Source: a virus (Duplodnaviria > Heunggongvirae > Uroviricota > Caudoviricetes). Taken from it: a DNA stretch of 9,574 bases. Below are positions 201 to 9,574 of this stretch, in pieces. Positions within the stretch are counted from its first letter, which is position 1; every line of letters starts with the position of its first letter. A program made the position numbers and the translations under genes. The stretch lies in the IMG/VR virus record IMGVR_UViG_2671180432_000011; one strand, 5' to 3'. The notes beneath the pieces were generated by a model. It saw nothing but the letters and a program-made list of their open reading frames with translations, searched no databases and had not been told where the DNA came from.

Positions 201-1283
201 TCATTTTCTCTGGCTGATCTTTACCGGATAACCATCCCGAAGATCAATTAAGTGCTCCGGTTCAGAAGCAAACCATGCATAAGATCCCCACGCCAATTCT
301 GGTATTGCCTTTTTAAAAGGCAGAGCACTTCTGTCCATAAATGCCGTAAGGAATGCAAGATTTTTCTCGCTGAACCCAGCGTCAATAGCCAAATGAGTGA
401 GAGTAACTTTTCGTTCCCTGTTTATAGGCCCATCTGTCGCAACTACTTCAGTGAAAACTACAAGCATGTCCGAACCCGTTCGGTCCTCTCCCAAATCAAT
501 CAAAATAATATCTGGAAGTGCTTTTGAGGCATCAATATTCAGCCCCAATGCTTTTGCCAATACATCATCCTGAGCAACAACTTTATTCCCGGATTCAGAC
601 AACCAGAGCACAGTTGGATTCTTAAGAAAATTAGGAGCAAAAACTTCGATGACGGCCTTAGCTATTGTACTTGACGGGCCCGGAGCTAAAGTTCTCTTCT
701 CTCCATTTGGGAAAGTGACGACTACGGCATCAGCAGCAATCACTGCCCCTGATTTCAATAAACGCAACCTAGCAAGAGCGGCTTTGTTCAAATGATTTTC
801 TTGCCAGGAACTTATTGCACTCAGCAGCGAATCTCCTTCAAGCCCGGCATCAAAGAGTGCTGCAAAAGAGCGATTCAAACTGTAACGAGGACGAGAGGAT
901 GTGGTGGGTATACCTTTACGCTCAACAATTGCATTGCAAGGTATTAGGCCATTTTTTATAGTTTCATCACGTATTGGCTCACGCGTATTTTCCGCATACC
1001 ATGCATCAGCAGGCCTTATCTTTTGTTTAGAGAAAGTCATCTTTACCCAGCTTTCTCTGGACGCATCATCAGTAAGAGCAGCCTGCGAATCTCCCATACT
1101 TACAACCTGGCTGGGCCTTATCCATCGCCCCAGCCCCTCAACCGCACCAGCATAAAACATGACAAAAATTGTTTTTGCAGCTATTTCCCGAATTAAATAT
1201 CCACGATTCTCAGTCCCTTCAGGGAAAATTAATTGTAATCTTTCCCGGATAACATTCAATGGGGGAACAACAGGCAGATTCAT
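201..1283 (-). CDS. Candidate Type II restriction endonuclease, 360 aa, partner of the upstream methyltransferase; family unassigned (BsuBI/PstI-like is a hypothesis only)
   Basis: Uninterrupted 360-codon ORF. Its ATG (1283-1281) overlaps the methyltransferase TGA stop (1282-1280) as ATGA, implying translational coupling. GGAG lies about 10 nt upstream inside the methyltransferase 3' end. Possible PD-(D/E)xK-like stretch 'LPDIILIDLGED...VVFTEVV'. No Walker or methyltransferase motifs. The nuclease function is inferred from context, not shown. Confidence 0.5.
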   Translation of the reverse strand: MNLPVVPPLNVIRERLQLIFPEGTENRGYLIREIAAKTIFVMFYAGAVEGLGRWIRPSQVVSMGDSQAALTDDASRESWVKMTFSKQKIRPADAWYAENTREPIRDETIKNGLIPCNAIVERKGIPTTSSRPRYSLNRSFAALFDAGLEGDSLLSAISSWQENHLNKAALARLRLLKSGAVIAADAVVVTFPNGEKRTLAPGPSSTIAKAVIEVFAPNFLKNPTVLWLSESGNKVVAQDDVLAKALGLNIDASKALPDIILIDLGEDRTGSDMLVVFTEVVATDGPINRERKVTLTHLAIDAGFSEKNLAFLTAFMDRSALPFKKAIPELAWGSYAWFASEPEHLIDLRDGYPVKISQRK

Positions 1284-3112
1284 GCAATCATCACTCCATA
1301 GAAACCAGCGATAGTTCTCTCAATAATCCGTCTGTGGACGCCAGCATCAATTAACGATTGAATCTCCATCACCTGCTCCAGAGAAGGCAACGGGATTGAA
1401 TTCAATTCATAGGCCGAAACAGCAACACTTCCGCTTATACACCTGAACGCCCGATCGACAACATGCGAATTAAGTAGCATATCAATAACATCAGGGCGAA
1501 CCGCAGAGAACAATCCGTTTGAATATACAATATTAATATGGTTTTCAACTACTACGCCACCAGTTTCATCTATAAATCCCTGAGGTAAAATTGCCGCTAA
1601 AATCCTTCTGTCCTGTTCCTTCGATGTTGTCCGCTGAACAAGCACACATTCAGATTTTGTCACAAGGAAACCCTGTTGTGGGGTTATATCGATATAGGGA
1701 ACATGATTTTTTCTGTCTGCACTAAAACGAAAACCAGCTGAAGTTATTGATTCCGCCCAGACTAATGGGTAGCTATTTTTTCCTTTCGTCGTACGCAACT
1801 GCGACTTAAATCGATTCCAGACTAACTGACCTGTAGAGACTGAGTATCCCAGATCAGCTAAACGCGTAGACATCTGTTTTAATACATTAAGAAAACAGGC
1901 ATCATCTTTAACGCGTGGCAAAAGCCACGTTGCTCCACCTTTTTCTATATCAACATTACCTATTTTCTCAATTTTTGCTTTGTTCAACCCCTTAGGGACA
2001 AGTGAGGATACCTGGGCCCGAACTTTATGTTCTCCCGCCTTGAATGCTGTCAACATTGTTTCCTGGAGAACATCGTCAAAGACCCCATCCCTGTCAGTGA
2101 CGAAATCAAGGGCATACGGAGTAGTTTTTTCGGTCAAAAGGGTTCGCAGCGCGGTGAAATACTGCCCACCAAGAAAAGAAGTTGGCGTAAGAAATGCAAT
2201 AACTCCTGTTTTCTCTTTAACCATGCGAACAGCTAAGTCGGTGAACAATCCATATAGATTTGCATGACCAAATAACGAACGAGAATATTTTTCTCTCGTT
2301 TTAATATCGAGAGTGACACGTCCGTAAGGCGGATTCCCTACCACAAGATCATAACCAGAAAATTTATCTTGCTGAAGCGCATCAGCAACAATAATTGTAT
2401 CTTCAGGCAATCTACGTTTTACCTTTACACATAGTGGCATTAGTACAGATTCGAGCAATACCAAACTCATCCAAGCCGCAAATGGATCGATCTCTATCCC
2501 CTTTAAACGACGACTGATTCTCCTCAACATCCATTCAGGGGAAGACCCCTTGTCTTTTTTTAACATTCGAATGGCTACTGGTGCCAAAAATGCACCGCCA
2601 CCACACGCAGGATCAATAACCGATGCATGAGAAAAATCAACACCAGACTTTTCAGCCAGGTCCAAGAGACGCGCTACCAAAGGTGGGGGGGTATAGTAAG
2701 CCCCCAATTCCGAACGGTAAGCGGATGGCAGCATTACCGTATAAATTGACCCAATCAGATATCCAGCGTCCTCCGCCGGAAATTGAGCAATAAGCTCACC
2801 TGTTCGTTCAGCGAGCTCGCGTGCATCACATGGAATGTCTTCTATGTAAACAGTGTGCGGTACTGCCCTCATTTTAATGCTGCTTTTTTGCTTTTTTGCA
2901 AGGGTATCCCAATATGCAGCTACGATGCTGAAGCAGTATGAGCGGGCATGCATCAACCTTGACTGCCCGGTTTTGTAATTGCCCGCATAACCTTTGGCCA
3001 TGGCTTTACAAGTTTGATATCTTTCCAGATTAGAAAACTCATTATCTGTAAAAAAATCAAAATGTTGCACATTCATAATGTAAAATCCTAATGTATCAAA
3101 CATGCGGGCCAT
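1280..3112 (-). CDS. N6-adenine DNA methyltransferase, gamma class (Eco57I/TaqI-like motif order), 610 aa
   Basis: AdoMet-binding motif I 'VIDPACGGGAFL' is followed about 90 aa later by catalytic motif IV 'VVGNPPYG'; this order is diagnostic of gamma-class amino-methyltransferases. A C-terminal region of about 280 aa after NPPY is the likely target-recognition domain. The start is uncertain: ATG at 3112, 3103 or 3076, the last with AGGA upstream. Confidence 0.85.
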   Translation of the reverse strand: MARMFDTLGFYIMNVQHFDFFTDNEFSNLERYQTCKAMAKGYAGNYKTGQSRLMHARSYCFSIVAAYWDTLAKKQKSSIKMRAVPHTVYIEDIPCDARELAERTGELIAQFPAEDAGYLIGSIYTVMLPSAYRSELGAYYTPPPLVARLLDLAEKSGVDFSHASVIDPACGGGAFLAPVAIRMLKKDKGSSPEWMLRRISRRLKGIEIDPFAAWMSLVLLESVLMPLCVKVKRRLPEDTIIVADALQQDKFSGYDLVVGNPPYGRVTLDIKTREKYSRSLFGHANLYGLFTDLAVRMVKEKTGVIAFLTPTSFLGGQYFTALRTLLTEKTTPYALDFVTDRDGVFDDVLQETMLTAFKAGEHKVRAQVSSLVPKGLNKAKIEKIGNVDIEKGGATWLLPRVKDDACFLNVLKQMSTRLADLGYSVSTGQLVWNRFKSQLRTTKGKNSYPLVWAESITSAGFRFSADRKNHVPYIDITPQQGFLVTKSECVLVQRTTSKEQDRRILAAILPQGFIDETGGVVVENHINIVYSNGLFSAVRPDVIDMLLNSHVVDRAFRCISGSVAVSAYELNSIPLPSLEQVMEIQSLIDAGVHRRIIERTIAGFYGVMIA

Positions 3113-3886: not shown

Positions 3887-4136
3887 NNNNNNNNNNNNNN
3901 NNNNNNNNNNNNNNNNNNNNNNNNNNNNNNNNNNNNNNNNNNNNNNNNNNNNNNNNNNNNNNNNNNNNNNNNNNNNNNNNNNNNNNNNNNNNNNNNNNNN
4001 NNNNNNNNNNNNNNNNNNNNNNNNNNNNNNNNNNNNNNNNNNNNNNNNNNNNNNNNNNNNNNNNNNNNNNNNNNNNNNNNNNNNNNNNNNNNNNNNNNNN
4101 NNNNNNNNNNNNNNNNNNNNNNNNNNNNNNNNNNNN

Positions 4137-4930: not shown

Positions 4931-5438
4931 TTACTTCACAACTCCCGGAAAGCTGACATTTGAACGCCAGCTATCCCAGTTAAACGTCACCCACCGACAA
5001 CCGTTCATGGTCATGCGGTCCATAATCCTCTCACCAAGAAGCGTGCTCATTGCGGCATGATTCAGGTTTGTTAACATCCCGACACTGCACAGTGATGCTG
5101 TCCGGCGATCAATTATCTGGTGCAATACCACCTGCTCGTTTTTCGTCTCCCGCTGAATGCCTATTTCATCCAGGACCAGCAAATCAACCCCGCAAAGCTC
5201 CTGTAAAAATTTTTCACCGGATTTGCCGTTGTCGTAGCTGTCATGCAACACGCTCATGACATCAGACTCGGTGACGATAATCACGCTGCGCCCCTTCGCC
5301 ATCAGCCGGTTACCCATCGCCGCTGCAAGGTGATTTTTCCCGGTGCCGGTTTTACCGCTGAACACAAAATTCGTGCACCCGGTCATCAGTTCGTCAGCTA
5401 TGGATTTGGCCTGGCTCAGCGCGTATTTTTGCCCGTCG
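4931..5438 (-). CDS. DnaC-like AAA+ helicase loader (replication protein), C-terminal about 169 aa visible; N-terminus masked
   Basis: Walker A 'FSGKTGTGKNHLAAAMG' and Walker B 'VDLLVLDEIG'. I checked that the frame stays open upstream of the track start at 5386 as far as the mask ('...DGQKYALSQAKSIADEL-MTGCTNF...'). Confidence 0.85.
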
Positions 5439-5688
5439 NNNNNNNNNNNNNNNNNNNNNNNNNNNNNNNNNNNNNNNNNNNNNNNNNNNNNNNNNNNNNN
5501 NNNNNNNNNNNNNNNNNNNNNNNNNNNNNNNNNNNNNNNNNNNNNNNNNNNNNNNNNNNNNNNNNNNNNNNNNNNNNNNNNNNNNNNNNNNNNNNNNNNN
5601 NNNNNNNNNNNNNNNNNNNNNNNNNNNNNNNNNNNNNNNNNNNNNNNNNNNNNNNNNNNNNNNNNNNNNNNNNNNNNNNNNNNNNNNN

Positions 5689-6660
5689 GGGGTTTTCAAA
5701 ATTCCGGTCCGGCCCAAAAAACGTCGTCGCTCGCTGAACAAATTCCGTTCCCGCTTTCCCGGTCGCCGCCAGGTATCTCGCGTAACGCCTCACACCATCC
5801 AGCATGGTCTCTGGTGGCCCCCCCTCGCGCAATCTGGCCTTCCAGGCACTGAATGCGGATTTCTTCGGGTTTGCCCCGGCACGCAACGGGTATTCCCGCC
5901 AGACCTGTTCGAACACATCCGGATAATCCACTCGTCCCACAGGCTGCCCGGTGTTTTCCGGGGCTACCCGATCGGCTTCCCGCTGAATGGCGGAATCGGC
6001 TTCAGGCTGCTGCAGTTGGAGTGATTGCTCCGGCCTTGCGGTCATCACCTGCTGCACAGCGCCCGAATCGGCTTTCAGCGCATACGCTGAATCGGCTTCC
6101 GGTGTCGAGCCTGCTGGCTGACCAGGATTGACGGTCTGAACATCCCCTGCCTGGTTCGTGGCGTTTTTTACGCCATGGACCATAGTGTTTTGATCTTCTT
6201 TATCTGTATCTTTATCTGTATCTGTCGTGACTCGTCGTGACATGTGCGTGACATTTCGTGACGCGCCGTGACAATCGCCATTTTGTTCCCGCTTTCTTTC
6301 CCTCTCTCGCTGCGCCCTCTTGCGCTCTGCAGGAGATTTTGCGGTTTGCGAAATATTGCCGTTGTCCTCTTTAAGCACCTGGCGTTTTTCCCATCCAGTG
6401 ATTAAATCACCATCAAGTACCCGCCCCTGCATCGTCTGCAAAATTGAATCAATTACCTCTTCTGTCACGTCGAGCGCACTTGCCAAATCTTCTGTCGTGA
6501 CATCAATGTGACCTCGCGTGACATTTCGTGACGCGCTCACCAGGAGGTGGATATACACTGCCATCACTGTTGCAATTGGCTGCCCTGACACCCTGGCAAT
6601 TGTTCGCCACTTAGGGTCATTTGGCATGTCATGCCATAATCTGAGCCAGGCGTTAGCCAT
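5689..6660 (-). CDS. Putative replication initiation protein (lambda-O position; possibly YdaU-like), N-terminal about 324 aa visible; 3' end masked
   Basis: ATG at 6660 with RBS GAGGTG 4 nt upstream. It sits between the CII-position gene and the DnaC-like gene. Phased iteron-like CGTGAC repeats lie inside it. Low-complexity linker 'TDTDKDTDKED'. Confidence 0.6.
6221..6272. repeat. Iteron-like array A: five CGTGAC hexamers phased at 10-11 bp (starts 6226, 6236, 6247, 6257, 6267), inside the initiator gene
   Basis: Read directly. Includes the 21-bp unit GCGTGACATTTCGTGACGCGC at 6246-6266, which recurs exactly at 6516-6536. A 12-bp tandem (ATCTGTATCTTT / ATCTGTATCTGT, 6202-6225) lies immediately upstream. 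Confidence 0.5.
6491..6540. repeat. Iteron-like array B: CGTGAC/TGTGAC hexamers phased at 10-11 bp (starts 6496, 6507, 6517, 6527), plus an inverted copy GTCACG at 6464-6469
   Basis: Read directly. Contains the second exact copy of the 21-bp unit at 6516-6536. Confidence 0.5.
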
Positions 6661-6731
6661 ACTCACCTCTTCTGATACCGAATCTTTTTACTCACGAGTT
6701 GCCGGGAGCGATTCGATATGGCTATTGTCAG

Positions 6732-7017
6732 TCAATGTACTGCCACAGCATTTCCTGCCGGGCCACCACGGTTCATCTGATTGAAACCGGCGATTGCCAC
6801 TGCGACAAAATCATCAGCGTCTCTCACCAGTCGTTCATGCGTCTCCACCAGTTCCCGAAAATAAGCTGAACTGTGGCTGCGCATTCGAGCCACCAGCGGA
6901 GGTGGCATTGCCCTTTCGATCGCAGGTAACAACGCCTGAATTTTTTCAACAGCGTCAGGGGTGTCTTTATCCAGCCAACGGAAAATCTTTTGGGTGTTGA
7001 GATAAAGCGTGTTGTGC
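6732..7017 (-). CDS. C-terminal 95 aa of a CII-position regulatory protein (YdaT-like by position); N-terminus masked
   Basis: Open frame ending at a TGA at 6734-6732: '...AIERAMPPPLVARMRSHSSAYFRELVETHERLVRDADDFVAVAIAGFNQMNRGGPAGNAVAVH'. It sits between the Cro-like gene and the initiator. The identity is positional inference. Confidence 0.4.
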
Positions 7018-7278
7018 NNNNNNNNNNNNNNNNNNNNNNNNNNNNNNNNNNNNNNNNNNNNNNNNNNNNNNNNNNNNNNNNNNNNNNNNNNNNNNNNNNN
7101 NNNNNNNNNNNNNNNNNNNNNNNNNNNNNNNNNNNNNNNNNNNNNNNNNNNNNNNNNNNNNNNNNNNNNNNNNNNNNNNNNNNNNNNNNNNNNNNNNNNN
7201 NNNNNNNNNNNNNNNNNNNNNNNNNNNNNNNNNNNNNNNNNNNNNNNNNNNNNNNNNNNNNNNNNNNNNNNNNNNNNN

Positions 7279-7419
7279 ACACCAACGTAATATTTTTTCT
7301 CCTGTAAGTTTTGCACGCCCCGTTATAACGTGGCTGACCATCCCTTGGGATGCGCCAACAATCTCAGCAAATGAACTCTGGGTTATATGAAAATGATGCA
7401 AATATTCTCCAAGATTCAT
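7279..7419 (-). CDS. Cro-like HTH regulator (YdaS-like by position), N-terminal 47 aa visible; 3' end masked
   Basis: ATG at 7419 with upstream GGGCGGA. HTH 'ITQSSFAEIVGASQGMVSHVITGRAKLTGEKIL'. Divergent from the repressor gene across an operator-bearing intergenic region. Confidence 0.55.
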
Positions 7420-7530
7420 AATCCGCCCTATGTGATGTGTTACCAATGCATAATTAATAGCACTGTTATTTTTAAAAGTAAATAGTGATACTATTTCAAA
7501 GTGATTAGCAATCTTATTAGAATTGGATGT
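7420..7530. promoter_or_regulatory. Divergent promoter/operator region between the Cro-like gene and the repressor gene
   Basis: AT-rich. Plus-strand extended -10 'TGaTACTAT' (7486-7494) for the repressor operon. Candidate minus-strand promoter: -35 TTTACT (7482-7477), 17-nt spacer, -10 TATTAA (7459-7454). Both overlap operator half-sites. Promoter calls are by eye. Confidence 0.45.
7481..7495. promoter_or_regulatory. Operator-like palindrome AATAGT-GAT-ACTATT; a further half-site AATAGC at 7456-7461
   Basis: Perfect 6-bp inverted arms with a 3-bp GAT spacer. Near-identical to the palindrome at 8592-8606. Confidence 0.45.
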
Positions 7531-8031
7531 ATGAAAAGAAAATCATTGTCAGACACCGACCTCAACGCCGCCAGAAGACTGAAAGAAATCTGGATGGCAA
7601 AGAAATCTCAGTTGGGATTGACTCAGGAACGTGCGGCGGAAATTATGGGGTTTTCAACACAAGGGGCGGTAAGTCACTACCTAAATGGTCAAACCCCACT
7701 AAACCTTGAGGCTGTTCTAAAGTTTGCTGGCTTACTGAAAGTTCCCCCTGAGTCAATCAGGCCAGACATGGTAGATTTGCTGCAAATTGCAAGGATGTAT
7801 TGTCGAGAACCACAGCAAGATAACATAGTCGCATTACCAGCAGACACAGAACAAACAGAGGATGAACTACCGTTTGCCGTAGAGCCGATGGAACGAGATT
7901 TAATCCATACGTTCAGAGCTTTTCCGAAAGAAGATCAAGAACACATGCTTCAGGAGATGAAAGATAAAAAAGAATCAATGGATCGTACGGTTGCGCGGTG
8001 GTTAGCTGCACAAAAAGGCCGTCGCGCCTAA
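7531..8031 (+). CDS. paaR: PaaR-like HTH transcriptional regulator (phage-repressor-type N-terminal XRE/cI HTH; no LexA-like S24 peptidase domain), 166 aa
   Basis: ATG at 7531 (the track's GTG at 7501 is less likely). HTH 'LTQERAAEIMGFSTQGAVSHYLNGQ'. First gene of a three-gene operon with the antitoxin and ParE. The symbol is assigned from operon architecture. Confidence 0.7.
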   Translation: MKRKSLSDTDLNAARRLKEIWMAKKSQLGLTQERAAEIMGFSTQGAVSHYLNGQTPLNLEAVLKFAGLLKVPPESIRPDMVDLLQIARMYCREPQQDNIVALPADTEQTEDELPFAVEPMERDLIHTFRAFPKEDQEHMLQEMKDKKESMDRTVARWLAAQKGRRA

Positions 8032-8050
8032 ATCAGAGGAGATATGTAAA

Positions 8051-8245
8051 ATGAGTACAGTCCTTTCCCCAATGGTTTCAGAATTTGAGACAGTTGAGCA
8101 AGAAAATAGTTACAACGAATGGCTGCGGGCCAAAGTAGCAGCAAGCCTCGCGGATCCCCGCCCGGCGATTCCGCATGATGAGGTAATGGCGGAAATGGAA
8201 CAAATTATTGCCCAAATTGCTGCTGCAACTCACAGAGGTGAATAA
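8051..8245 (+). CDS. paaA: PaaA-like antitoxin of a ParE-family toxin, 64 aa
   Basis: RBS AGGAG at 8036-8040. The sequence 'LSPMVSEFETVEQENSYNEWLRAKVAASLADPRPAIPHDEV' closely resembles PaaA2 as I recall it. The stop overlaps the toxin start (TAATG). Confidence 0.7.
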   Translation: MSTVLSPMVSEFETVEQENSYNEWLRAKVAASLADPRPAIPHDEVMAEMEQIIAQIAAATHRGE

Positions 8246-8535
8246 TGTTACCCGTTTTATGGCTACCATCTGCTCGTGATGATTTGCGCCAGATCGTAGC
8301 CTACATAGCTAAAGAAAATCCCGCGGCAGCACGCAGAATGAAAATTCGAATTGAAACATCCGTTTTGCCGCTCACAGAGCATCCTTACCTGTATCCTCCA
8401 AGCGAGCGAGTTCTTGGTCTTCGTGAAATTGTAACTCATCCTAACTACATCATCCTTTACCGAGTAACAGCATCAAGCATAGAAGTAGTAAATATTGTGC
8501 ATTCTCGAAGACAGTATCCAGGCAAAAACAGTTAA
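8245..8535 (+). CDS. parE: ParE-family toxin (RelE/ParE superfamily), 96 aa
   Basis: ParE signatures 'LWLPSARDDLRQIVAYIAKENPAAA' and 'REIVTHPNYIILYRV...IEVVNIVHSRRQYP'. 1-nt start/stop overlap with the antitoxin gene. Confidence 0.85.
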   Translation: MLPVLWLPSARDDLRQIVAYIAKENPAAARRMKIRIETSVLPLTEHPYLYPPSERVLGLREIVTHPNYIILYRVTASSIEVVNIVHSRRQYPGKNS

Positions 8536-8551
8536 TTATTCCCGCCGACAG

Positions 8552-8577
8552 AACCACCTTAGGGTGGTTTTTTCTTG
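8552..8577 (+). terminator. Rho-independent terminator of the paaR-paaA-parE operon
   Basis: Stem AACCACC (8552-8558), loop TTAG, stem GGTGGTT (8563-8569), then a T-tract TTTTTTCTT, starting 17 nt after the parE stop. Confidence 0.6.
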
Positions 8578-8591
8578 CCCCAACAAAAAAC

Positions 8592-8606
8592 AATAGCGAT
8601 GCTATT
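8592..8606. promoter_or_regulatory. Second operator-like palindrome AATAGC-GAT-GCTATT, embedded in a 10-bp inverted repeat (AAACAATAGC 8588-8597 / GCTATTGTTT 8628-8637); GATGCTATT repeats at 8625-8633
   Basis: Read directly. Same AATAGY-GAT-RCTATT architecture as 7481-7495. Confidence 0.45.
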
Positions 8607-8814
8607 TACATCAAAAAAAATAATGATGCTATTGTTTCAGGCGTCAACCCACCCCGCCCCACAGAATGCAGGGCAATACTTCGAGTTACCAGACAGTGGT
8701 CAGGGGTTAAGTAGCCAGCCCGAGGCGTAAGAACATGACGGCAGGGTTCAATCTTTAACTATGCAGCAGGTTTTTTGTTCCGCCACCCCGGCGTTAAGGG
8801 GAAATGAGGTCAGC

Positions 8815-8967
8815 ATGGATACTATCGATCTTGGCAACAACGAATCTCTGGTGTGCGGCGTGTTCCCTAACCAGGATGGAACGTTTACCGCCATGACGTA
8901 TACCAAAAGCAAAACGTTTAAAACCGAATCTGGCGCGCGTTGCTGGTTAGCCAGAAACACTGACTGA
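8815..8967 (+). CDS. Small hypothetical protein, 50 aa (MDTIDLGNNESLVCGVFPNQDG...)
   Basis: ATG at 8815 with GAGG 5 nt upstream. The track's longer start at 8761 lacks an RBS. The position matches small early-leftward prophage genes. Confidence 0.4.
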   Translation: MDTIDLGNNESLVCGVFPNQDGTFTAMTYTKSKTFKTESGARCWLARNTD

Positions 8968-9344
8968 TGAGGCTGACGATGGAATTTAAAGATTTACCGT
9001 CTGATGTACAGAAAACAGCAGCTCATACATTGCATTCTGTGCTGCGAGAAATCGGGAAAGATATTGCAAGCGAGCCAGCAAAAGATCTGGCCCGGAAAAT
9101 CAAGACCGCTTTCGTTGAGCTTTATAATGTTGGCACTGACTCTGAAACTGTCGAGACCAAGACCGTAAGTTCACCAATATTCTCACTTGAGCCAAGCGTA
9201 TTATCAGGTGAAATATGCACCGAGATTTCCAGCGAACTGCTTCCGGTAATACGAGAAGCAATTCGCCGTCGCGGTTTGGATGGAAGTTATGATCATGACG
9301 TTCTGCAAGTTCTCAGGACAATGGTGACTTCACTGGGGATTTGA
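8967..9344 (+). CDS. Hypothetical protein, about 121-125 aa
   Basis: ATG at 8967 overlaps the upstream TGA (TGATG); an alternative ATG at 8979 has GAGG at a 6-nt spacing. No motif recognised. Confidence 0.55.
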   Translation: MRLTMEFKDLPSDVQKTAAHTLHSVLREIGKDIASEPAKDLARKIKTAFVELYNVGTDSETVETKTVSSPIFSLEPSVLSGEICTEISSELLPVIREAIRRRGLDGSYDHDVLQVLRTMVTSLGI

Positions 9345-9574
9345 TCCCTGCGTCCTCTAAGCTTTTGATATAGCGGTCCTCCAAGAAGCGGTAAATTTTG
9401 TCGAAATCATCTTTTCCCTCTGGTTTATTCAGAGGATTACAGGACCCGTAAGTAGCGGCATACATTTCAACCGTTTGGTAATGACTCCAACTTATTGATA
9501 GTGTTTTATGTTCAGATAATGCCCGATGACTTTGTCATGCAGCTCCACCGATTTTGAGAACGACAGCGACTTCC

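What the first reader, a model, noticed from the sequence alone, without database searches (positions are those of the whole stretch)
7420..8577. Three-component ParE toxin-antitoxin operon sits in the prophage immunity-repressor position
An HTH regulator, a 64-aa antitoxin and a ParE toxin form one operon (19-nt gap, then a 1-nt TAATG overlap, then a strong terminator). It is transcribed divergently from a Cro-like gene across an operator-bearing region, the same topology as lambda cI-rexAB versus cro. This matches the PaaR-PaaA-ParE three-component system described for an E. coli O157:H7 cryptic prophage. The repressor here lacks an S24 autocleavage domain, so any induction would be SOS-independent or antirepressor-mediated. 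The toxin-antitoxin pair may stabilise the prophage or exclude superinfecting phage.
Basis: partly seen in the sequence, partly recalled or inferred. Interest (0 to 1): 0.5.

Follow-up and report, generated by a model that had tools for sequence, protein, structure and literature searches.

The report
Prophage repressor operon carrying ParE toxin-antitoxin
This is a Shigella sonnei copy of an already described arrangement, a prophage immunity repressor co-transcribed with a PaaA antitoxin and ParE toxin, so it is a correct but ordinary finding whose only new detail is a repressor with a lambda-CI-like DNA-binding head.

Summary
There are three same-strand ORFs: HTH regulator 7531-8031, 64-aa PaaA 8051-8245 and 96-aa ParE 8245-8535. 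They have a 19-nt gap, a TAATG overlap and a hairpin/T-run terminator, and they diverge from a Cro-like gene.

The interpretation also holds. PaaA and ParE match the solved E. coli O157:H7 PaaA2 and ParE2 (E 1e-23 and 7e-37). The regulator shares the conserved C-terminal module of PaaR proteins and has no S24 peptidase domain.

The idea that this operon occupies the cI-rexAB position is already published for prophage CP-933P (Jurenas 2021, PMC8630535; Prolic-Kalinsek 2023, PMC9986795).

What I add:
- The window is 100% identical to Shigella sonnei chromosomes. There it lies in a ~9.4-kb prophage stump with IS1 on both sides.
- The repressor is a hybrid, with a lambda-CI-like N-terminal domain (about 31-40% identity depending on the method; target-normalised TM 0.85-0.94) and a DicA/PaaR-type C-terminal helical hairpin. 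PaaR2 itself shows no CI similarity.
- Four 15-bp dyads (AATAGY-N3-RCTATT) form OR-like and OL-like pairs flanking the operon, and the predicted PRM-like promoter implies a leaderless mRNA.
- In relatives, the slot behind the repressor carries other cargo (HigBA, a HipA-like pair, or nothing recognisable).

Verdict: a new member of a known kind, of low interest.

The parts
6732..7017 (-). Readable C-terminal 94 codons plus stop of ydaT (CII analogue); the 5' part is hidden by the N mask 7018-7278
   Evidence: Translation. The full 141-aa protein from the identical S. sonnei locus matches PDB 8bt1 YdaT (E 3e-70) and 3c4r (E 4e-79). PHROG 163 'CII-like transcriptional activator' E 5e-44 for the L001 orthologue.
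7279..7419 (-). Readable N-terminal 47 codons of the Cro-like ydaS gene (87 aa in full; the 3' end is masked)
   Evidence: ORF. Weak HTH_3 hit on the readable part (E 0.0025). The full-length L001 orthologue hits PHROG 35 'transcriptional repressor' at 6.6e-16. No detectable similarity to CP-933P YdaS, so it is a different immunity type.
7454..7482 (-). Predicted PR-like promoter: -35 TTTACT (7482-7477), 17-nt spacer, TGn-extended -10 TATTAA (7459-7454), driving ydaS-ydaT
   Evidence: Read from the sequence. It has 8/12 consensus matches, so it falls below the scanner's threshold. It is conserved in relatives. This is an inference.
7456..7470 (.). OR1-like operator dyad AATAGCACTGTTATT, overlapping the PR spacer and -10
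   Evidence: half-sites conserved in relatives.
7481..7495 (.). OR2-like operator, the perfect dyad AATAGT-GAT-ACTATT. It overlaps the PR -35 and abuts the PRM -35
   Evidence: FDAARGOS_944 has AATAGC-GAT-GCTATT, a symmetric double change that keeps the dyad.
7504..7518 (.). Tentative weak OR3-like site ATTAGCAATCTTATT, between the PRM -35 and -10
   Evidence: It has 3 mismatches to the dyad pattern, which is not above chance by count (15 found vs 10 expected). It is proposed only from its position (23 bp centre-to-centre from OR2) and partial conservation.
7495..7523 (+). PRM-like promoter TTCAAA-17-TAGAAT. The -10 ends 7 nt before ATG 7531, which predicts a leaderless paaR mRNA
   Evidence: Promoter scan; both hexamers invariant in four relatives. 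There is no usable SD before the ATG. Leaderless paaR2 and cI are documented. The transcription start here is an inference.
7531..8031 (+). paaR-type immunity repressor, 166 aa: lambda-CI-like N-terminal domain (res ~1-91), disordered linker (92-118), DicA/PaaR-type helical hairpin (119-166)
8051..8245 (+). paaA antitoxin, 64 aa, with no DNA-binding domain
8245..8535 (+). parE toxin, 96 aa, translationally coupled to paaA (TAATG)
8547..8579 (+). Intrinsic terminator of the operon (hairpin 8550-8571 plus T-run)
8592..8633 (.). OL-like operator pair AATAGCGATGCTATT (8592-8606) and AATAATGATGCTATT (8619-8633), 27 bp apart
   Evidence: The spacing is 25 bp in E. coli relatives.
8605..8635 (+). Predicted PL-like promoter: TTTACA, 19-nt spacer (17 nt in relatives), TGn-TATTGT, reading towards ydfA
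   Evidence: Read from the sequence and from the alignments. The design matches the predicted PR. A PL analogue downstream of the TA operon is documented for CP-933P. This is an inference.

Best explanation
The region is the immunity (lysogeny-maintenance) operon of a lambdoid, Qin/CP-933-like prophage remnant in Shigella sonnei, with a PaaA-ParE toxin-antitoxin pair as cargo in the slot that rexAB occupies in lambda.

Proposed mechanism; only the homology and the anatomy are shown here, the rest is inferred.
- The 166-aa repressor binds, through its lambda-CI-like N-terminal HTH domain, 15-17-bp dyads (AATAGY-N3-RCTATT). These sit at an OR cluster between paaR and ydaS and at an OL pair just past the operon terminator.
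- Its short C-terminal helical hairpin (DicA/PaaR type) provides oligomerisation in place of the S24 peptidase domain. The repressor is therefore not RecA-cleavable.
- Bound at OR1/OR2 it shuts the rightward promoter (ydaS = Cro analogue, ydaT = CII analogue) and the leftward PL-like promoter. It probably also stimulates its own weak PRM-like promoter, whose transcript starts at or next to the ATG (leaderless).
- paaA and parE ride on the same transcript and are translationally coupled.
- PaaA has no DNA-binding domain and neutralises ParE by wrapping around it. Because PaaA is protease-labile (shown for PaaA2), loss of the locus frees ParE and kills or arrests the cell. The module therefore acts as an addiction device that holds the immunity region, and here the whole stump, in the chromosome.
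For: Homology:
- PaaA matches PaaA2 (PDB 3zbe E 1.4e-23; PF21217 E 3e-23).
- ParE matches ParE2 (5cw7_B E 6.7e-37). It is 86% identical to the ParE of the other O157:H7 locus.
- The PaaR C-terminal module is conserved in both O157:H7 regulators and matches the C-terminal part of the NCBIfam DicA model (E 7e-8).
- The N-terminal domain is homologous to lambda CI (phmmer 2.9e-9; BLASTP 5e-14; AF2 model vs 1lmb/3kz3, target-normalised TM 0.85-0.94, rmsd 1-2 A, 36-40% identity).

Anatomy:
- Gene order, 19-nt gap, TAATG overlap and terminator.
- Dyad operators in two clusters flanking the operon, with conserved half-sites and variable centres in relatives.
- PRM-like promoter ending 7 nt before the ATG.
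- A perfect YdaT box TTGATTcatgaaAATCAA at the ydaS/ydaT junction in the identical S. sonnei sequence, matching the published YdaT operator.

Context and selection:
- Prophage context.
- Purifying selection on all three genes (dN/dS 0.04-0.09).

Published experiments on the CP-933P homologue:
- PaaR2, YdaS and YdaT act as CI, Cro and CII analogues, paaR2 is leaderless, a PL analogue exists, the switch is bistable, and the locus stabilises a plasmid.
Against: - Nothing was tested experimentally for this allele.
- The DNA-binding domain and the Cro-like partner are not homologous to those of CP-933P, so operator logic cannot simply be transferred. CP-933P has four inverted repeats; here I see two strong sites and one doubtful site at OR.
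- The OR3-like site is not above chance.
- PR and PL are below the scanner's threshold. The PL spacer is 19 nt in this strain against 17 in relatives, so PL may be crippled.
- The element is a ~9.4-kb stump without lysis or morphogenesis genes, so 'immunity' is vestigial.
- S. sonnei is clonal, so identity among its genomes says nothing about selection in this host.
- Part of ydaS/ydaT is N-masked in the window and was read from an identical chromosome, not from the window.
- The cellular target of ParE2-type toxins is unresolved in the literature.
Confidence: 0.85

Rival explanations
1. A genuine, self-contained three-component TA system. PaaR would be the detached DNA-binding half of a split antitoxin, whose main job is to autoregulate the TA operon. 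The prophage location would be incidental.
For: Gene order and tight coupling. This is the original naming of the O157:H7 systems, cited. DNA similarity to the O157:H7 loci starts inside the paaR C-terminal region and runs through paaA-parE as one block (query 374-989), so the CTD and the TA travel together.
Against: The N-terminal domain is a CI homologue and the C-terminal module resembles DicA, a prophage repressor with no TA. The same dyads also sit at an OL-like position beyond the operon, implying control of other promoters. Relatives of the same repressor family are followed by HigB/HigA, a HipA-like pair or no recognisable TA. The published work concludes that the TA is embedded in prophage immunity control.
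Confidence: 0.08
2. A Rex-like abortive-infection or superinfection-exclusion module. ParE would be released when another phage infects, protecting the population.
For: The module sits in the same slot as lambda rexAB. Relatives carry other TA or kinase-type cargo in this slot, which fits a defence hot-spot. Many TA systems are known to act in phage defence (general knowledge).
Against: No match of any of the three proteins to PADLOC defence models. No experimental report for PaaA-ParE in the papers read; single-cell work detected no ParE2 activation under steady-state conditions.
Confidence: 0.15
3. An inert relic. The three ORFs are intact only because S. sonnei is a young clone, and neither the switch nor the toxin still functions.
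For: The element is a stump between IS1 copies, lacking integrase, lysis and structural genes. The PL-like spacer is lengthened to 19 nt in this lineage. Identity among S. sonnei genomes is uninformative.
Against: No frameshift or stop in any of the three genes, nor in ydaS or ydaT. The operators, the PRM hexamers and the YdaT box are intact. The family is under strong purifying selection. A stump that keeps exactly an R-M pair and a TA pair is what addiction would predict.
Confidence: 0.1

Closest known systems
paaR2-paaA2-parE2 (RAE2) of cryptic prophage CP-933P / Sp12, E. coli O157:H7. The same locus is present in phage Evi LR597642
   Same: Same gene order, same TAATG-type coupling, and the same position between ydaS-ydaT and the ydfA/dicB-side genes. 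PaaA is 67% identical. ParE is about 70% identical by eye from the alignment, and phage Evi's ParE is 67.4% identical. The PaaR C-terminal ~45 residues are conserved. YdaT is nearly the same protein (E 3e-70 to 8bt1). A YdaT box lies at the ydaS/ydaT junction. There is an OL/PL analogue downstream of the toxin gene, a leaderless-type promoter geometry, and no S24 domain.
   Different: The repressor N-terminal domain is unrelated to that of PaaR2. It is 166 aa against 123 aa and has a long disordered linker. The Cro-like protein is unrelated. The operators are 15-17-bp dyads of a different sequence, apparently three rather than four at OR. In short, this is a different immunity specificity grafted onto the same CTD-TA block.
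Second O157:H7 locus (L002; presumably the CP-933M paaR1-paaA1-parE1 homologue mentioned in PMC8630535)
   Same: This is the closest TA pair among the characterised strains: ParE 86% and PaaA 77% identical. The PaaR CTD is 56% identical over 64 aa. The flanking genes are the same.
   Different: Its regulator (133 aa, MMSALEV...) has yet another HTH domain. I could not confirm from the tools that this locus is the one named paaR1 in the literature.
Bacteriophage lambda cI-rexA-rexB / OR / cro-cII
   Same: Same topology. The repressor N-terminal domain is homologous, including the basic N-terminal arm (KRK vs KKK) and the acidic residues aligned with the CI positive-control patch (E34, D38 -> E, E). 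That comparison is my reading of the alignment plus textbook knowledge. Operator centres are spaced 25 and 23 bp against 24 and 23 bp in lambda. OR2 abuts the PRM -35. The repressor mRNA is predicted to be leaderless. The terminator is followed by OL/PL.
   Different: There is no S24 peptidase/dimerisation domain, so no RecA-mediated induction. The recognition helix and the operator sequence differ. The cargo is a ParE TA pair instead of RexAB. The CII analogue is a POU-type YdaT.
DicA repressor of the Qin prophage (E. coli K-12)
   Same: Same chromosomal neighbourhood (the ynfF-H/dmsD/clcB side; that this is the Qin position is from my own knowledge of K-12). Same downstream ydfA-type gene. 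The C-terminal module matches positions 74-130 of the DicA model.
   Different: The whole-protein score is 32 bits against a cut-off of 101, so it is not a DicA equivalent. The N-terminal domain differs. As far as I know, DicA is not followed by a TA pair.
Classical ParD-ParE (RK2, Caulobacter, Vibrio)
   Same: ParE-fold toxin (Pfam PF05016), with the antitoxin gene immediately upstream.
   Different: The antitoxin has no ribbon-helix-helix DNA-binding domain. Transcription control is delegated to a separate prophage repressor.

Membership tests
PaaR-PaaA-ParE module | ParE-fold toxin closely related to ParE1/ParE2 | tested here: met
   PDB 5cw7_B E 6.7e-37 over residues 1-93; Pfam ParE_toxin 64 bits vs cut-off 23; 86% identity to the O157:H7 L002 toxin.
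PaaR-PaaA-ParE module | Small PaaA-type antitoxin without a DNA-binding domain, encoded immediately upstream of the toxin | tested here: met
   Pfam PF21217 PaaA2 81.9 bits vs cut-off 27; PDB 3zbe E 1.4e-23. No HTH, RHH or AbrB family was reported.
PaaR-PaaA-ParE module | Separate HTH regulator of PaaR type as first gene of the same operon | tested here: met
   Same strand, 19-nt gap. The C-terminal 64 aa are 56% identical to the O157:H7 regulator (E 6e-23) and are conserved in PaaR2. The N-terminal domain is NOT homologous to PaaR2. Membership therefore rests on the CTD and on synteny.
PaaR-PaaA-ParE module | Location in a lambdoid immunity region, divergent from ydaS-ydaT | tested here: met
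   The YdaT box is present in the identical S. sonnei sequence.
PaaR-PaaA-ParE module | Toxicity of ParE, neutralisation by PaaA, repression by PaaR, and addiction | not testable with these tools
   Known only for the CP-933P homologue. It requires wet-lab assays.
Lambda CI / LexA-type (S24) phage repressors | CI-type N-terminal HTH domain | tested here: met
   phmmer 2.9e-9 to 1lmb; BLASTP 5e-14; Foldseek target-normalised TM 0.85-0.94, 36-40% identity.
Lambda CI / LexA-type (S24) phage repressors | C-terminal S24 peptidase domain with self-cleavage site | tested here: not met
   No Peptidase_S24 hit at E <= 0.1. The meaningful alignment to full-length CI ends at the N-terminal domain. The AF2 model shows only two C-terminal helices after a disordered linker.
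DicA repressor (NCBIfam NF007257) | Whole-protein match above the curated cut-off | tested here: not met
   32.4 bits vs cut-off 101. Only model positions 74-130 (the C-terminal module) match, E 7e-8.
Canonical ParD-ParE | Antitoxin with its own DNA-binding (RHH) domain that autoregulates the operon | tested here: not met
   PaaA matches only the PaaA2 model (plus a sub-threshold DUF2922 hit) in Pfam. NCBIfam names it a RelB-family antitoxin through a 45-position model that covers the toxin-binding part.
Known anti-phage defence systems (PADLOC) | Match of any component to a defence-system model | tested here: not met
   No hits for the three proteins at E <= 0.01. This says nothing about function.

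The most novel reading that the evidence does not exclude
The gene slot directly behind DicA/PaaR-type, non-cleavable prophage repressors is a general cargo bay for addiction or defence modules: ParE here, HigBA in a Salmonella relative, and a HipA-like pair in a metagenomic relative. In S. sonnei the ParE pair, together with the neighbouring type II restriction-modification pair, would be what has preserved a 9.4-kb IS1-bounded prophage stump with a still complete CI/Cro/CII-type switch. The hybrid repressor (lambda-CI head, DicA/PaaR tail, with 244-aa tandem-HTH relatives) would then be a natural intermediate. It would show how SOS-cleavable CI repressors were converted into SOS-blind ones by domain swapping inside the gene.
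Probability: 0.3. Interest if true: 0.4.

Novelty: new member of a known kind. Interest (0 to 1): 0.2.

Why it matters
It matters little for discovery. The architecture, the CI/Cro/CII analogy, the missing peptidase domain and the addiction role are all published for the E. coli O157:H7 homologue.

Its modest value is comparative.
- This allele gives direct sequence and structural homology between a PaaR-type repressor and lambda CI. The published PaaR2 lacks that homology, which made the CI analogy purely functional.
- It shows that the immunity cassette (repressor head, operators, Cro) is exchanged independently of the repressor tail plus TA block.
- It is fixed in S. sonnei, a heavily sequenced pathogen. 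There, a stump that retains both a TA pair and an R-M pair is a tidy natural example of addiction modules surviving genome decay.

Tried and rejected
- The consensus terminator scan did not report the + strand terminator. I traced this to the stem rule consuming the T-run and confirmed the hairpin by folding.
- The first frame guess for the regulator (7532) was off by one and was corrected to 7531.
- The O157:H7 locus fetched first (L002) turned out not to be RAE2, because its regulator starts MMSALEV rather than MQKKE. RAE2 was recovered from phage Evi.
- Looking for the window's Cro-like protein among solved structures gave only marginal HTH hits, and it has no similarity to CP-933P YdaS.
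- A third OR operator could not be supported statistically.
- The + strand promoter-like site inside paaR (7618-7646) and the - strand one at 8647-8620 are within chance expectation (3 found vs 2.5 expected), so I do not interpret them.
- PADLOC gave nothing.
- A whole-window megablast was dominated by IS1 hits and was only useful for partial matches.
- I did not use the large representative-protein search or the metagenome/genome contig scans, because the identity of the locus was already settled.
Full report
**1. What is in the sequence**

The window has three + strand ORFs in the stated interval.
- An HTH protein has its best-supported start at ATG 7531. This gives 166 aa, and the stop is at 8029-8031.
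- A 64-aa ORF lies at 8051-8245.
- A 96-aa ORF lies at 8245-8535.

From the raw sequence, the first gap is 19 nt. The second junction is TAATG, with one shared base. Both downstream genes have Shine-Dalgarno-like motifs.

The segment after the toxin gene folds into a 9-bp hairpin (8550-8571) followed by a T-run (dG -15.1 kcal/mol, z -3.1). The consensus scanner missed it because its stem rule absorbs part of the T-run.

The window contains three N masks: 3887-4136, 5439-5688 and 7018-7278. The third hides the 3' end of the divergent Cro-like gene and the 5' end of the gene after it.

**2. Where it comes from**

The regulator's exact sequence occurs in thousands of assemblies. All readable parts of the window are 100% identical to the first of the chromosomes retrieved (L004). 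The matching proteins are named Shigella sonnei in the protein database. One of the retrieved chromosomes, HE616528.1, I recognise as S. sonnei 53G; that is my own knowledge.

In that chromosome the element is a stump of roughly 9.4 kb. From one end to the other it reads:
- an IS1 copy;
- a BsuBI/PstI-type restriction enzyme and an N6-methyltransferase;
- small ORFs, a DUF977 protein and a DUF1627 protein;
- a DnaC-like ATPase and a replisome organiser;
- ydaT and ydaS;
- the three-gene operon;
- a ydfA-like gene and one more ORF;
- a second IS1 copy.

Host genes ynfF-H, dmsD and clcB follow in some strains. No integrase, lysis or structural genes remain.

A 99.3%-identical copy of the operon in E. 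coli FDAARGOS_944 sits in a much fuller lambdoid prophage. The order there runs from int, exo, dicB and ydfABC, through the operon, to ydaS, ydaT, replication genes, Q, lysis genes and terminase. That order fixes the operon at the cI-rexAB position.

**3. Identity of the three proteins**

PaaA:
- Pfam PF21217 (PaaA2) scores 81.9 bits against a cut-off of 27.
- PDB 3zbe/5cw7 PaaA2 matches at E 1.4e-23.

ParE:
- Pfam ParE_toxin matches at 1.8e-17.
- PDB 5cw7_B ParE2 matches at E 6.7e-37 across residues 1-93.

I recovered the authentic RAE2 locus from phage Evi, where the regulator begins MQKKE as in the paper. I also fetched a second O157:H7 locus, L002.
- Against L002, ParE is 86% and PaaA 77% identical.
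- Against RAE2, PaaA is 67% identical.

The regulator aligns with both O157:H7 regulators only over its last ~60 residues (56% identity, E 6e-23). The three N-terminal domains are mutually unrelated.

**4. The regulator is a hybrid**

- **N-terminal domain.** Residues 2-81 align with the lambda CI N-terminal domain (E 2.9e-9; BLASTP 5e-14). An AlphaFold model (mean pLDDT 78.6, about 90 in the domain) superposes on 1lmb, 3kz3 and 1rio. The target-normalised TM is 0.85-0.94, rmsd 1-2 A, and identity 36-40%. PaaR2 shows no such similarity (E 0.49). This agrees with the published remark that PaaR2 resembles CI only functionally.
- **Linker.** Residues 92-118 are predicted to be disordered.
- **C-terminal module.** Residues 119-166 form a helix-turn-long-helix. 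This tail matches model positions 74-130 of the NCBIfam DicA model (E 7e-8).
- **No peptidase.** There is no S24 peptidase domain.
- **Relatives.** The protein database shows 166-aa relatives at 75-90% identity in E. coli and E. albertii. It also shows a 154-aa Salmonella form. In addition there are 244-aa forms that carry the CI-like head, a second L002-type (presumably PaaR1-like) HTH domain and the same tail.

**5. Regulatory anatomy**

- **Operators.** Four dyads matching AATAGY-N3-RCTATT with at most one mismatch occur in the window. Two lie between paaR and ydaS (7456-7470, 7481-7495). Two lie just past the terminator (8592-8606, 8619-8633). Shuffles give 0.06 such sites, but the pattern came from these sites, so that figure is only indicative.
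- **Independent support.** In relatives about 80% identical overall, the half-sites are invariant while the central bases change. FDAARGOS_944 also carries a symmetric double substitution in the central OR site that preserves the dyad.
- **PRM-like promoter.** It reads TTCAAA-17-TAGAAT at 7495-7523 and is invariant in relatives. It ends 7 nt before the ATG, and there is no usable SD. This predicts a leaderless mRNA, as shown experimentally for paaR2 and cI.
- **PR- and PL-like promoters.** By inspection, a PR-like promoter (TTTACT-17-TGcTATTAA, - strand) overlaps the two OR dyads. A PL-like promoter of the same design overlaps the OL dyads.
- **Doubtful third site.** An OR3-like site at 7504-7518 is positional only and is not above chance.
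- **YdaT box.** The identical S. sonnei sequence has a perfect published YdaT box, TTGATT-N6-AATCAA, at the ydaS stop / ydaT start. This lies inside the window's mask.
- **Neighbouring regulators.** YdaT itself is close to the crystallised CP-933P protein (E 3e-70). The Cro-like protein has no similarity to CP-933P YdaS.

The mosaic is therefore as follows. ydaT is conserved. The cassette of ydaS, operators and repressor head is replaced. The block of repressor tail, paaA and parE is conserved. At DNA level, the O157:H7 loci match only query positions 374-989 of the operon, which supports this.

**6. Constraint and distribution**

- Against two ~80%-identical E. coli loci, dN/dS is 0.08 for paaR, 0.04-0.05 for paaA and 0.06 for parE, with dS above 1. 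All three genes are maintained as proteins.
- In 5,426 complete E. coli genomes, this allele or its ~80% family is present in 65.
- RAE2-type DNA is present in 633 genomes.
- Any detectable relative of the operon is present in 842 genomes.

**7. Is the regulator part of the TA system?**

I looked up the neighbourhoods of three relatives.
- A Salmonella protein with the CI-like head and a DicA-like tail is followed by HigB plus an HTH protein.
- A 244-aa tandem-HTH relative is followed by a HipA_2 protein plus a DUF3037 protein.
- A 133-aa Salmonella relative of the L002 type is followed by an unrecognised ORF and then ydfA.

All three are divergent from ydaS/ydaT-like genes. The repressor family is therefore not tied to PaaA-ParE, and the slot behind it takes varied cargo. 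This favours the reading 'immunity repressor plus TA cargo' over 'three-component TA'. It agrees with the insertion hypothesis in the published discussion.

**8. Comparison with the literature**

Jurenas et al. 2021 (PMC8630535) report the following.
- paaR2-paaA2-parE2 lies in the CP-933P immunity region.
- paaR2 is leaderless, and a PL analogue exists.
- The switch is bistable.
- PaaR2 lacks the autocleavage motif and is insensitive to mitomycin C.
- The locus is addictive.

Prolic-Kalinsek et al. 2023 (PMC9986795) state that paaA2-parE2 replace rexA-rexB and that PaaR2 replaces CI. I found no paper in the library that discusses the S. sonnei allele or a CI-headed PaaR. That is absence of evidence within this library only.

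**9. Verdict**

The finding is a new member of a known kind, with a hybrid repressor as a minor variant feature. Exclusion of superinfecting phage remains untested (no PADLOC hit). Interest is low (0.2).

Noticed in passing
window 201-3112 (- strand): A type II restriction-modification pair: a BsuBI/PstI-family endonuclease (201-1283) overlapping an N6-methyltransferase/Eco57I-type protein (1280-3112). It lies in the same prophage stump, so the stump carries two addiction-type modules.
   Followed up: partly
window 9471-9574; L004 1-382 and 9963-10660: The window ends in the terminal ~100 bp of an IS1 copy, and another IS1 lies just left of the window in the S. sonnei chromosome. The prophage remnant therefore has IS1 on both sides. 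This also explains the >10,000 megablast hits of the whole window.
   Followed up: partly
window 8610-8620: The A-run between the two OL-like dyads is two bases longer than in E. coli relatives. This gives 27 bp instead of 25 bp between the sites and a 19-nt instead of 17-nt spacer in the predicted PL-like promoter, so early-left transcription may be weakened in S. sonnei.
   Followed up: partly
window 7481-7495 vs L001 12192-12206: The central OR dyad differs from its 99.3%-identical E. coli counterpart by a symmetric pair of substitutions (AATAGT..ACTATT vs AATAGC..GCTATT). The change keeps perfect dyad symmetry.
   Followed up: no
proteins P0013-P0023 (loci L012, L013): These 244-255-aa relatives of the repressor carry two HTH domains in tandem (a CI-like head plus a second HTH of the kind in the L002 regulator) before the shared tail. 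They are followed by a HipA_2 protein and a DUF3037 protein instead of PaaA-ParE.
   Followed up: partly
L010/L011 3001-4339: A Salmonella relative with the CI-like head and a DicA-like tail (154 aa) is followed by a HigB toxin and an HTH (HigA-like) gene in the same slot.
   Followed up: no
L003 (phage Evi LR597642.1) about 5001-5279: The ParE2 gene is present but not annotated in the deposited phage Evi record. This record carries the complete RAE2 locus in a 40-kb phage genome.
   Followed up: no
window 3887-4136, 5439-5688, 7018-7278: The N masks do not preserve length. They correspond to 245, 338 and 259 bases in the identical S. sonnei chromosome, so coordinates cannot be carried across a mask. 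ORFs reported through the masks (for example 5416-6666 and 6732-7316) are artefactual in length.
   Followed up: yes
window 8812-8967 and 8967-9344: A ydfA-like DUF1391 gene and an overlapping 125-aa ORF of unknown function follow the PL-like promoter. The latter has no Pfam hit on record. The ydfB, ydfC and dicB genes seen in the E. coli relative are absent before the IS1.
   Followed up: no
window 7618-7646 (+ strand, inside paaR): A promoter-like site TTGACT-17-AATTAT could in principle drive paaA-parE independently of PRM. The number of such sites in the region is no higher than in shuffles (3 vs 2.5), so it may be chance.
   Followed up: no
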